A stretch of DNA of 64,000 bases, from assembly GCF_051903065.1 (NCBI RefSeq), contig NZ_CP178438.1; one strand, 5' to 3'. This stretch comes from Escherichia coli (GTDB taxonomy: Bacteria > Pseudomonadota > Gammaproteobacteria > Enterobacterales > Enterobacteriaceae). Position numbers: made by a program. Positions 45,001-48,000 of this stretch are shown piece by piece (within the stretch, counting starts at the first letter, position 1; each line of letters starts with the position of its first letter).

Positions 45001-48000
45001 CTTATTTATTTCAATAAATATATCGCCTAAAAACAACGCGGGGCAGGGAATGACTGCCCCATTTTTAATTTTTAAGTAGGGTGCGTGGTTGACTACTCGT
45101 TAGCAAATAATCAAATAGCTAAAGCATTCATCGTGTTGCCCGTATTCATACCCATGTGACTTTGACAACGGTACTCCTTAGAAACTCTCTTCGGACTGTT
45201 GCCGAAATGTTTGCGGAACGCATAAATAAAATAAGATGTACTGGCATAACCACATTGTTCGGCAATTTTATTGACTGAACCTTCTACGCGTATCAAATTT
45301 TTTGCGTGCTGCATTCTGGCATCTAATAGAATCTGTGAGAATGTCGTTTGCTCTTGCTTTAGTTTTTTCTTCAACAGGCTTTCACTGATGTACAGGCAGT
45401 CACAAATATCTTTCAGCTTCCATGGGTGCGCCAGCTTCATGTTGACAATATTTCTCACTTTCCCGGAAACGGATAGCACACCGTTAGTTAATAGTGTAAT
45501 GAAACCTTTGCATGCGGCAAATATAGACAGGCAAGAAAAAAGCAAAAGTTCTGAAAAATTATGATGATTGCGTTCTTCCGAGTTGAGATAAGCAATCATT
45601 TCATTAAGCAATCCAGTCGGTACATTTGAAGCACGTAAAAACTTCGCAGGAACAGGCACCGTCACTGTCTGGATGTTAGTGCATTGTAGATATTTTTTAA
45701 TGGTATTTTCATTAAATCCGATTTCTTTAAAATGCCGCTCATAAGGTTCAAAATGTGTACGAACAGCGTTATCTACCATCAGGATCTCGCCGTCAGAGAA
45801 GGCGTAATCTTTATCTAAAATGTTAGCGTTGAAAGCATGATGAATAAATATAACAGAACAAACGAGCGACATTTTATCTCCTTAAAACAATAAAGTTTTA
45901 TCGATACTTTTTTAACATTTCATATTTATAATTTGCTGTTTATTTTCAGTCTTGCAAACTATTGATAATGAAATGTGTAAGATCTCTTGCAATGCGACCC
46001 ATTTCTGAAATACCCAGCTGATCAATTGCCGAAAAAATGGCTATCAACGTAAGTGTCAGTAATAAGACAACCACAATTACAGACATGATTTCTTTATAGT
46101 TGTCTCTTTGTGTGATTTTATTTTTCACTGTGGTCGCATGCATTTCAAATATGTTTATTTAGCGGATAACGTTAAAAATCGTTAATCAGTATGCTTAATA
46201 TAACAGGCTGGAAAAAAGAGGAAATAGGACTGGTGCTTCAGTACTGAGCGGAGTTTCTTACAGCTGTAGGCAGAAGTTTAAATCTTATAGTATGTAGTTT
46301 AATTTAATCCATGTGAGCAAATTGCGCGATAATAGTCAATGAGGAATTCTTCTGCTGTGCGGATGACAGCAGAAGAAATGAGAAGAGGCATTAATTTGAT
46401 GGTTCTAATTCAACCGGAATACTTTTATAGCCAGGAATGCCACTTAATGGATCGTGGTTATCAAGTGTTAGCATGTGATTCGATTCTGGAAAATAGGTCA
46501 CCAGTGAGCGGTCAGCCATAGGGTAAATGACCACTTTTAATCTATCCATGCGGCGGTGATGCTGCCAACTTACTGATTTAGTGTATGATGGTGTTTTTGA
46601 GGTGCTCCAGTGGCTTCTGTTTCTATCAGCTGTCCCTCCTGTTCAGCTACTGACGGGGTGGTGCGTAACGGCAAAAGCACCGCCGGACATCAGCGCTATC
46701 TCTGCTCTCACTGCCGTAAAACATGGCAACTGCAGTTCACTTACACCGCTTCTCAACCCGGTACGCACCAGAAAATCATTGATATGGCCATGAATGGCGT
46801 TGGATGCCGGGCAACAGCCCGCATTATGGGCGTTGGCCTCAACACGATTTTACGTCACTTAAAAAACTCAGGCCGCAGTCGGTAACCTCGCGCATACAGC
46901 CGGGCAGTGACGTCATCGTCTGCGCGGAAATGGACGAACAGTGGGGCTATGTCGGGGCTAAATCGCGCCAGCGCTGGCTGTTTTACGCGTATGACAGGCT
47001 CCGGAAGACGGTTGTTGCGCACGTATTCGGTGAACGCACTATGGCGACGCTGGGGCGTCTTATGAGCCTGCTGTCACCCTTTGACGTGGTGATATGGATG
47101 ACGGATGGCTGGCCGCTGTATGAATCCCGCCTGAAGGGAAAGCTGCACGTAATCAGCAAGCGATATACGCAGCGAATTGAGCGGCATAACCTGAATCTGA
47201 GGCAGCACCTGGCACGGCTGGGACGGAAGTCGCTGTCGTTCTCAAAATCGGTGGAGCTGCATGACAAAGTCATCGGGCATTATCTGAACATAAAACACTA
47301 TCAATAAGTTGGAGTCATTACCCCATGCGGCGTGAGCTGCGCTTACCGTCTGGCGTAAGCGCAATAAGATTAACTCTTTCGCCGTTTTTTACACGGCAAA
47401 TTTTAGCTTGTTTAGCACTCATAAAGACCACATCTCGTTGACCGAATACCCCTCGATAGCGATCATCCATACCATAAATCGTCGTGTTGTACTGATCGTG
47501 GCTGCGTACTGTCGCCATGACCAGCTTACTGTTAAACGCTGAAGAGGGATCTTCTAACAGCCCTTTGCTGGTAATGAAATTAGCCTTACCTGACGGCGTC
47601 ATCCAGCGCCTTTCAGCAGCTGCATTTATCAGGTGAAAACCACCGGGATGACGGATGCGCTGGTTATAGTCGGCGAACTCTGGCAGCACAGCTTCAATGT
47701 CGTTGCGAATGCGATCATAATCTTCCACCAGATACTCCCAGGCTACCACGCTCTGGGGTAGTGCTGCCTGTGCGATTCCCGCGACCACTGCACACTCTGA
47801 TTTCAGCATTACACCGGCGGGTTTTAACACGCCACGCGAGGCATGAATCATCGACATTGAATCCTCAACGGTTACCGCCTGCGCACCGCTTTTTTGCATG
47901 TCAATCTCGCTACGTCCCAGAACCGGCAGAATATAGCTATGCCGTGCGGTCAGCAGATGAGAGCGGTTAAGCTTAGTGGCTACGTGTACCGCCAGATCTA

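What the first reader, a model, noticed from the sequence alone, without database searches (positions are those of the whole stretch)
46347..46377. Perfect 12-bp inverted repeat immediately after the ydeP stop
ttcttctgctgt-gcggatg-acagcagaagaa is a strong hairpin but lacks the U-run of an intrinsic terminator on the ydeP strand. It could be an RNA stability element, a Rho-dependent pause site or a protein-binding palindrome at the boundary between ydeP and the safA promoter.
Basis: seen in the sequence. Interest (0 to 1): 0.3.

Follow-up and report, generated by a model that had tools for sequence, protein, structure and literature searches.

The report
Conserved U-less hairpin ending ydeP mRNA
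A perfect 12-base-pair hairpin 13 bases after the stop codon of the E. coli acid-resistance gene ydeP is real and almost invariant across thousands of strains, and is most likely an ordinary stem-loop that marks and protects the end of the ydeP messenger RNA.

Summary
The inverted repeat is exactly as described: arms 46347-46358 and 46366-46377, with a 7-nt loop. It lies 13 nt downstream of the ydeP stop codon (ydeP is on the minus strand) and 74 nt upstream of the EvgA box of the safA-ydeO promoter. It is not a chance match: 0.05 such repeats are expected per window, and the RNA fold is -16.8 kcal/mol (z = -5.7).

It is single-copy and always sits in this context. It is exact in about 5,305 of about 5,370 complete E. 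coli genomes, although the bases on both sides are polymorphic. A divergent Escherichia lineage has identical arms (24/24), an inverted loop and unrelated flanks.

The tail on the ydeP strand (UUCCUCAUU) fails the terminator scan, varies between strains and is absent in the divergent lineage. A canonical intrinsic terminator is therefore unlikely. The downstream RNA has more C than G (23 C, 12 G per 100 nt). This matches the published class of U-less stem-loops that protect the 3' ends of Rho-terminated E. coli mRNAs.

No 3'-end data for ydeP were found, so the mechanism is inferred. I found no support for protein binding, a repeat family or an Rfam match.

In this window an IS1 insertion interrupts ydeP. 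The finding is ordinary and of low interest.

The parts
46366..46377 (-). 5' arm of the hairpin as read on the ydeP (minus) strand: UUCUUCUGCUGU
   Evidence: I1, 12 nt, 100% complementary; fold. Invariant in 11 diverse E. coli and in the divergent lineage L012.
46359..46365 (-). 7-nt loop, CAUCCGC on the ydeP strand. The MFE adds a C-G pair, giving an AUCC tetraloop with one bulged C.
   Evidence: This is the only part of the hairpin with a population variant: + strand GCGGGTG in 57 genomes. It is inverted (ACGGAUG) in L012/L158.
46347..46358 (-). 3' arm of the hairpin on the ydeP strand: ACAGCAGAAGAA
   Evidence: One stem variant was seen among about 5,370 records (strain A42). One IS903B insertion cuts this arm (L092).
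46338..46346 (-). Tail after the hairpin on the ydeP strand, UUCCUCAUU: not a U-tract
   Evidence: The terminator scan does not call it. It is polymorphic (TTCCTC / TTTCTC / TCCCTC). In L012 it is replaced by ACTCGAATT.
46378..46390 (-). 13-nt pyrimidine-rich spacer between the ydeP stop and the hairpin (UGCCUCUUCUCAU)
   Evidence: It occurs as two main haplotypes, GCCTCTTCTCAT and TCGCCTCCTCAT.
46391..46393 (-). ydeP stop codon (TAA)
   Evidence: ORF list; RefSeq annotation of the collinear MG1655 locus.
46391..46554 (-). 3' fragment of ydeP (last 54 codons and stop) left of the IS1 insertion
   Evidence: 100% identical to intact ydeP of strain ECNB21-M121 (H1).
46555..47322 (+). IS1 (768 bp) inserted in ydeP, with a 9-bp target duplication CCATGCGGC at 46546-46554 and 47323-47331
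   Evidence: The junction is absent from all 5,426 complete E. coli genomes.
47323..49447 (-). 5' part of ydeP (molybdopterin oxidoreductase domain)
   Evidence: PF00384.
46255..46272 (+). EvgA-box-like inverted repeat of the safA-ydeO promoter, 74 nt downstream of the hairpin on the ydeP strand
   Evidence: The pattern TTCYTACANNTGTARGAA (consensus recalled from memory) hits only here and upstream of ydeP at 49691-49708, with 1 mismatch each. It is conserved in all E. coli and in L012. EvgA binding to the safA-ydeO promoter is stated in PMC9496106.
45946..46143 (-). safA, the next gene downstream on the same strand
   Evidence: PF17073 in the related locus L095.

Best explanation
The repeat is transcribed as part of the ydeP 3' UTR and folds into a 12-bp stem-loop that forms the mature 3' end of ydeP mRNA.

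The hairpin has no U-tract, so it probably does not release RNA polymerase efficiently by itself. Transcription that passes it runs into about 200 nt of untranslated, C-rich and G-poor RNA. There Rho, possibly helped by some weak hairpin-dependent termination, ends the transcript.

3'-to-5' exonucleases (PNPase, RNase II) then trim back to the base of the stem. The stem blocks them, which fixes the 3' end and stabilises the ydeP message. A side effect is that strongly EvgA-induced ydeP transcription is kept apart from the separately EvgA-controlled safA-ydeO promoter.

Shown here: the hairpin, its stability, its position, its strong conservation, the lack of constraint on its tail, and the C>G composition downstream.

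Inferred: that 3' ends map at its base, that Rho is the terminating factor, and that the stem protects against exonucleases.
For: 1. The hairpin is stable and non-random. It starts 13 nt after the ydeP stop, on the transcribed strand of ydeP.

2. It is single-copy and always in this context. There is one place per genome in 5,304 genomes. All 85 metagenome and viral matches to the arms, with any loop allowed, lie in the ydeP 3' flank.

3. The constraint is on the stem, not on its surroundings. In 11 diverse E. coli, 0 of 31 hairpin columns vary, against 43 of 216 other intergenic columns (Fisher p = 0.0017). The longest invariant run of the spacer, 37 nt, contains the hairpin. About 5,305 of about 5,370 records carry the exact 31-mer, 57 carry a loop A>G change, and one carries a stem mismatch. 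The divergent lineage L012/L158 has 24/24 identical arm bases while its intergenic region is only 63-71% identical.

4. The loop is inverted in L012, so the loop sequence on a given strand is dispensable while the stem is kept.

5. The tail is not a U-tract. It is polymorphic at its first three positions and has no U-rich character in L012.

6. On the ydeP strand, the 100 nt after the hairpin hold 23 C and 12 G, which puts it in the top 6% of windows. The C/G ratio stays at 1.5-2.2 down to safA.

7. Dar and Sorek 2018 (PMC6061677) report that steady-state 3' ends of Rho-dependent E. coli transcripts sit immediately after stable stem-loops. Those stem-loops lack U-rich tails and upstream A-tracts, have mild C-over-G enrichment downstream, and protect against PNPase and RNase II.
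Against: There is no direct 3'-end, bicyclomycin or half-life data for ydeP. The gene is absent from the Term-seq and SMRT-Cappable-seq supplements I could search, and other supplements are not held.

The C>G skew is mild and extends over the whole region, including the ydeP coding end, so it is weak evidence for a rut site.

The arms are conserved as sequence with no compensatory change, so RNA structure is not proven over a DNA-level role. The element is a perfect palindrome, so it gives the same stem on both strands.

Some authors write of a 'ydeP-safA-ydeO operon' (PMC11052181), which would imply substantial read-through.
Confidence: 0.5

Rival explanations
1. It is a weak, non-canonical intrinsic terminator. 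The hairpin plus the partly U-rich tail (UUCCUCAUU) releases a fraction of polymerases directly, perhaps with help from NusA or NusG, and so partially insulates safA-ydeO from ydeP transcription.
For: The hairpin is stable and close behind the stop codon. The tail has two proximal U and 5 U in 9 nt. In strains with the TTTCTCATT tail, the tail would meet the scan's rule of 5 U in 8 nt (read).
Against: The scan does not call it in the window. The three tail positions nearest the stem, which matter most for intrinsic termination, are the polymorphic ones (TTC / TTT / TCC). The divergent lineage keeps the stem but has ACUCGAAUU after it. The stem has a U-rich 5' arm and an A-rich 3' arm on both strands, the reverse of the A-tract/U-tract polarity of intrinsic terminators (read).
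Confidence: 0.2
2. It acts as double-stranded DNA: a 31-bp palindromic operator for a dimeric protein. The protein would regulate safA-ydeO from about 100 bp upstream of the EvgA box, or act as a roadblock to ydeP transcription.
For: The arms are conserved as exact sequence rather than through compensatory changes, while the central 7 bp can be flipped or changed. That is what a spacer between two half-sites would allow. The element lies upstream of a heavily regulated promoter.
Against: There is no candidate protein. It is not an EvgA box, even with 3 mismatches allowed. The half-site occurs nowhere else in the 64-kb window with up to 1 mismatch. The 31-mer has one place per genome, so there is no regulon-like set of sites. 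The genomic SELEX list of RpoD holoenzyme binding sites reports no peak in the ydeP-safA spacer (PMC3946193). Perfect 12-bp arms are longer than typical operator half-sites.
Confidence: 0.1
3. It is a hairpin-stabilised pause site that slows RNA polymerase just after ydeP translation ends, so that Rho can catch up. The hairpin would then be part of the termination mechanism itself rather than a post-termination protective structure.
For: The same positional and compositional evidence applies as for the best explanation. C>G is also present upstream of the hairpin: 78-nt windows starting at 46430-46390 have a C/G ratio of 1.9-2.3.
Against: The RNA upstream of the hairpin is translated up to 13 nt before the stem, so little free RNA is available there for Rho loading. 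By my own knowledge, known hairpin-dependent pauses use short stems placed 10-12 nt behind the 3' end. Dar and Sorek place rut sites downstream of the stem-loops, not upstream.
Confidence: 0.08
4. It has no function. It would be a palindrome that arose once, for example by template switching or a small insertion, and is kept perfect by intra-palindrome correction.
For: The loop inversion in L012 shows that DNA-level hairpin or template-switch events have happened here. A 7-nt direct repeat (CCTCATT) flanks the palindrome in E. coli, reminiscent of an insertion scar. In the window the upstream gene is already a pseudogene, yet the hairpin is intact.
Against: Unbiased correction between arms does not stop both arms from changing together. 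Yet all 24 arm bases are identical between lineages whose flanks are 63-71% identical. Only one of about 5,370 records has a stem change, while adjacent bases carry common polymorphisms.
Confidence: 0.1

Closest known systems
U-less 3'-terminal stem-loops of Rho-dependent E. coli transcripts (Dar and Sorek 2018, Nucleic Acids Res 46:6797, PMC6061677)
   Same: It is a stable stem-loop directly after the gene. It has no U-rich tail and no upstream A-tract. The downstream DNA shows mild C-over-G enrichment. The gene is weakly expressed and was probably horizontally acquired.
   Different: ydeP is not in any 3'-end data set I could read. The two experimental hallmarks, a 3' end at the stem base and bicyclomycin-dependent read-through, are therefore untested. 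The stem is unusually long, perfect and A/U-rich at its base.
Canonical intrinsic (Rho-independent) terminators
   Same: It is a hairpin of comparable energy and loop size a few nucleotides after a stop codon, on the transcribed strand.
   Different: It has no U-tract (UUCCUCAUU). The tail is unconstrained in the population and absent in the divergent lineage. The U-rich 5' arm and A-rich 3' arm have the opposite polarity to terminators.
Repetitive extragenic palindromes (REP/BIME) and other intergenic repeat families that stabilise upstream mRNA
   Same: It is an extragenic palindrome after a stop codon that could block 3' exonucleases.
   Different: It is single-copy: one place per genome, and every metagenome match is in the same locus. 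It has no Rfam match.
EvgA box (18-bp inverted repeat at the ydeP and safA promoters)
   Same: It is an inverted repeat beginning TTCTT in the same regulatory neighbourhood.
   Different: The half-site sequence and spacing differ (12-bp arms 7 bp apart, against 8-bp arms 2 bp apart). It does not match the box pattern with 3 mismatches allowed.

Membership tests
Intrinsic (Rho-independent) terminator | Stable G+C-containing stem-loop on the transcribed strand just after the gene | tested here: met
   12-bp stem with 5 G-C pairs and a 7-nt loop, -16.8 kcal/mol, z = -5.7.
Intrinsic (Rho-independent) terminator | U-tract immediately 3' of the stem (the scan requires at least 5 U in 8 nt starting 0-2 nt after the stem) | tested here: not met
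   The tail is UUCCUCAUU and is not called by the scan. It is polymorphic. In L012 it reads ACUCGAAUU.
Intrinsic (Rho-independent) terminator | Factor-independent transcript release 7-9 nt after the stem | not testable with these tools
   Needs in vitro transcription or 3'-end mapping.
Protective stem-loop at the 3' end of a Rho-dependent transcript (Dar and Sorek class) | Energetically stable stem-loop downstream of the gene without a U-rich tail or an upstream A-tract | tested here: met
   The upstream flank is pyrimidine-rich (UGCCUCUUCUCAU), not A-rich.
Protective stem-loop at the 3' end of a Rho-dependent transcript (Dar and Sorek class) | C-over-G enrichment in the sequence downstream of the stem-loop | tested here: met
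   23 C against 12 G in the next 100 nt, which is in the top 6% of 100-nt windows of the window. The skew is mild and not specific to this stretch.
Protective stem-loop at the 3' end of a Rho-dependent transcript (Dar and Sorek class) | Dominant in vivo 3' end at the base of the stem; read-through increased by bicyclomycin; trimming by PNPase/RNase II | not testable with these tools
   No ydeP entry in the searchable supplements. Other supplements are not held.
Dispersed repeat family (REP/BIME, ERIC, MITE) | Many copies per genome in different contexts | tested here: not met
   Median of one place per genome. All 85 metagenome and viral matches lie in the ydeP 3' flank. No further copy of an arm in the window with up to 1 mismatch.
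EvgA box | Match to TTCYTACA-N2-TGTARGAA (consensus recalled from memory, checked against the two EvgA-activated promoters in the window) | tested here: not met
   With up to 3 mismatches the pattern hits only 46255-46272 and 49691-49708, not the hairpin.
Any curated RNA family (Rfam 15) | Covariance-model match | tested here: not met
   Nothing overlaps the hairpin at E <= 10.

The most novel reading that the evidence does not exclude
The palindrome is recognised as a specific sequence rather than as a generic stem. The recogniser could be a still unidentified dimeric DNA-binding protein, or an RNA-binding protein of 3' stem-loops such as ProQ. Through it, ydeP mRNA fate or read-through would be tied to the output of the downstream safA-ydeO promoter, adding a further control point to the EvgA acid-resistance cascade. 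The exact conservation of all 24 arm bases, against a freely invertible loop and diverged flanks, does not exclude this.
Probability: 0.1. Interest if true: 0.4.

Novelty: new member of a known kind. Interest (0 to 1): 0.15.

Why it matters
ydeP, safA and ydeO are three adjacent, co-oriented, EvgA-activated genes of the E. coli acid-resistance cascade. Whether ydeP transcription stops before the safA promoter determines whether they behave as one operon or two, and the literature uses both descriptions.

A strongly conserved 3' stem-loop gives a concrete, mutable element for answering that question. It would also be a clean natural example of a U-less protective hairpin.

Beyond this locus the finding is ordinary. 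Hairpins of this kind are expected at the ends of a large fraction of E. coli genes.

Tried and rejected
- **Rfam.** A scan of 45800-46700 with permissive thresholds found nothing at the hairpin.
- **Published 3'-end or operon maps.** ydeP, safA and ydeO are absent from the Adams 2021 Term-seq supplements and the SMRT-Cappable-seq supplements. The supplements of Dar and Sorek 2018, Conway 2014 and Nadiras 2018 are not held. Eguchi 2007 and Peters 2012 are not held. Full-text searches combining ydeP with terminator, Term-seq, bicyclomycin or read-through gave nothing relevant.
- **Covariation.** This was not possible. The arms never vary, and only one outgroup lineage carries the hairpin (L012 and L158 are identical). 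The closest non-Escherichia ydeP genes, in Edwardsiella (83% identity over the C-terminal 250 residues compared), run straight into a convergent gene and have no hairpin. P0001, at 93% identity, turned out to be ordinary E. coli with an extended start call.
- **Mobile or repeated element.** Rejected, because the element is single-copy and always in the same locus.
- **EvgA box.** Rejected.
- **Small coupled ORF.** A 30-codon ORF at 46299-46391 (minus strand) has an ATG overlapping the ydeP stop (UAAUG). It is rejected as a gene, because the start codon is missing in the common TAATTCG flank haplotype.
- **Loop flip-flop polymorphism within E. coli.** Not found. A synthetic query with an inverted loop matched at best 91.2% over its full length.
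- **RyhB link.** The 10-nt identity to the RyhB core is same-sense, is not invariant in E. coli and is not conserved in L012. It is treated as chance.

Full report
**Observation.** The window at 46347-46377 reads TTCTTCTGCTGT GCGGATG ACAGCAGAAGAA: two perfectly complementary 12-nt arms around a 7-nt loop. The genes here are on the minus strand. ydeO is at 45111-45872 and safA at 45946-46143. ydeP ends with the stop codon TAA at 46393-46391. On the ydeP strand the RNA reads UAA-UGCCUCUUCUCAU-[UUCUUCUGCUGU-CAUCCGC-ACAGCAGAAGAA]-UUCCUCAUUGAC. The hairpin therefore begins 13 nt after the stop codon.

It is not a chance match. The window holds four perfect inverted repeats of at least 12 bp with loops of 3-10 nt, against 0.05 expected from Markov simulations. 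The RNA folds at -16.8 kcal/mol on the ydeP strand and -17.8 on the other strand, with z-scores of -5.7 and -6.0. As single-stranded DNA it folds at about -11 kcal/mol.

The terminator scan does not call it on either strand. The best 8-nt tail window on the ydeP strand has 4 U, and the opposite strand continues AUGAGAAGA. Because the repeat is a perfect palindrome, both strands give a U-rich 5' arm and an A-rich 3' arm. That is the opposite polarity to an intrinsic terminator.

**Context.** An EvgA-box-like repeat (TTCTTACAGCTGTAGGCA, 46255-46272) lies 74 nt downstream of the hairpin on the ydeP strand. The only other match in 64 kb is upstream of ydeP at 49691-49708. This fits the published statement that EvgA binds the safA-ydeO promoter (PMC9496106). 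The hairpin itself does not match this pattern. It thus sits between the end of one EvgA-activated gene and the promoter of the next.

In this particular window ydeP is a pseudogene. A 768-bp IS1 (46555-47322) with a 9-bp target duplication splits it 54 codons before the stop. No complete E. coli genome has this junction.

**Distribution and conservation.**
- The ydeP-safA spacer is present in 5,374 of 5,426 complete E. coli genomes.
- The 61-nt hairpin-plus-flank query finds 5,370 records. The identity classes seen (100, 98.4, 93.4-93.7 and 92.1%) are the mismatch counts of the flank haplotypes in the alignment.
- The 31-nt hairpin alone is found in 5,306 records, 5,305 of them at 99% identity or better.
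- A further 57 records carry one loop substitution, GCGGGTG on the + strand.
- One strain (A42) has a C>A change at the third position of one arm.
- One strain has IS903B inserted into an arm.
- In an alignment of 11 diverse strains, none of the 31 hairpin columns varies, against 43 of 216 columns in the rest of the spacer (Fisher p = 0.0017). The longest invariant run, 37 nt, contains the hairpin and is longer than the run containing the EvgA box.
- The bases touching the stem on both sides are common polymorphisms. Upstream they are GCCTCTTCTCAT or TCGCCTCCTCAT. Downstream they are TTCCTC, TTTCTC or TCCCTC.

**Outgroup.** ydeP has a narrow distribution. After E. coli and Shigella, the next relatives are in Edwardsiella (85-87% over the full protein), then Hafnia and Providencia at about 70%. 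The Edwardsiella genes end against a convergent gene and have no hairpin.

One divergent Escherichia lineage carries ydeP-safA with an intergenic region only 63-71% identical to E. coli. It is represented by L012, a GTDB species representative labelled E. coli, with 94% identity over the YdeP C-terminus. The metagenome contig L158 is identical to it. Both arms are identical to those of E. coli (24/24).

The loop in this lineage reads ACGGATG on the ydeP strand. That is the reverse complement of the E. coli loop CATCCGC with one change, and it matches the E. coli loop at 0 of 7 positions in the direct orientation. The flanks are unrelated: UUCUUUUU upstream and ACUCGAAUU downstream. No E. coli genome carries the inverted loop.

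The stem is therefore kept, the loop can be flipped, and the tail is free to change.

A scan of metagenome and viral contigs for the two arms with any 7-nt loop gave 85 loci. All of them are in the ydeP 3' context, so the hairpin is not a dispersed repeat. Rfam has no match.

**Mechanism.** A canonical intrinsic terminator is unlikely, because its second defining feature, the U-tract, is missing, is unconstrained, and is lost in the outgroup.

The anatomy instead fits the class described by Dar and Sorek (PMC6061677). In that class, steady-state 3' ends of Rho-dependent E. coli transcripts lie immediately after stable stem-loops with reduced U content and no upstream A-tract. Mild C-over-G enrichment follows, and the stem-loops protect against PNPase and RNase II.

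Here the 100 nt after the hairpin hold 23 C and 12 G on the ydeP strand, which is in the top 6% of windows. The C/G ratio stays at 1.5-2.2 down to safA.

I therefore rank the explanations as follows.
- Most likely, at about 0.5: the hairpin is the 3'-terminal protective stem-loop of ydeP mRNA. Termination happens downstream, chiefly through Rho, and this also insulates the safA-ydeO promoter.
- About 0.2: a weak intrinsic terminator.
- About 0.1: a DNA operator. There is no candidate protein and no second site.
- About 0.08: a Rho pause hairpin.
- About 0.1: a functionless palindrome. This is contradicted by the population and outgroup conservation.

None of these can be settled without 3'-end mapping. 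I found no such data for ydeP.

**Comparison and novelty.** The element works like the U-less 3' stem-loops of Rho-terminated genes. Membership in that class is met for the sequence-level features and untested for the experimental ones. It fails the U-tract test for intrinsic terminators, the copy-number test for REP-like repeats and the pattern test for EvgA boxes.

I found no description of this particular hairpin in the literature available here. It is best called a new member of a known kind, and of low general interest.

The most novel reading not excluded is sequence-specific recognition of the arms by a protein. It rests only on the absence of compensatory change, and I give it about 0.1.

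Noticed in passing
window 46555-47322 (target duplications 46546-46554 and 47323-47331): A complete IS1 (768 bp, insA/insB on the + strand) is inserted in ydeP 54 codons before its stop, with a 9-bp target duplication CCATGCGGC. 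The junction is absent from all 5,426 complete E. coli genomes searched. A second IS1 end starts at 63959. The window probably comes from an IS1-rich, Shigella-like genome in which ydeP is a pseudogene.
   Followed up: partly
window 42187-44190: ydeM and most of ydeN are missing. The window is collinear with MG1655 only from 44190 rightwards, which leaves a 201-codon N-terminal sulfatase fragment of ydeN (44135-44740, minus strand). The 561-aa ORF at 42187-43872 (minus strand) is a YddA-like ABC transporter.
   Followed up: partly
L012 3269-3299 and L158 (divergent Escherichia lineage), versus window 46359-46365: The 7-nt loop of the hairpin is inverted relative to its flanks in this lineage (ACGGATG against CATCCGC on the ydeP strand), while both arms are identical. 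This looks like a small inversion or template-switch event across the palindrome. It is fixed between lineages and not polymorphic within E. coli.
   Followed up: yes
window 46336-46346 and 46378-46386 (alignment A1, columns 36-44 and 75-83): A short direct repeat flanks the palindrome on both sides in E. coli. It reads CCTCATT twice in the B2-type haplotype, and TCTCATT / CCTCATT in the window. It resembles a target-site duplication and hints that the palindrome arose by insertion. It is absent in the L012 lineage.
   Followed up: no
window 46299-46391, minus strand: A 30-codon ORF has an ATG overlapping the ydeP stop (UAAUG) and reads through the hairpin. The start codon exists only in the K-12-type flank haplotype (TAATGCC) and not in the common TAATTCG haplotype, so it is probably not a gene.
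   Followed up: yes
window 46312-46321, minus strand: TTGCTCACAT in the ydeP 3' UTR is identical, in the same sense, to the core of RyhB. The RyhB sequence was verified as Rfam RF00057 in an E. coli genome. RyhB is reported to repress ydeP in Shigella. Being same-sense, this stretch cannot pair with RyhB. It also varies in some E. coli and is not conserved in L012, so it is probably chance.
   Followed up: partly
window 46539-46568, minus strand: A promoter-like hybrid (TTGGCA-18-TAGATT) spans the IS1 end and the ydeP fragment and points towards the hairpin and safA. It matches 9 of 12 positions, and the number of such sites in the region is no higher than in shuffles, so this is only a lead.
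   Followed up: no
L092 (E. coli 7_33_46A) and L005 (E. coli JNEC-KY171): Other strains have independent lesions at this boundary. In L092, IS903B is inserted inside the hairpin arm. In L005, a deletion removes the ydeP C-terminus and the hairpin. The locus is evidently a recurrent target of decay.
   Followed up: partly
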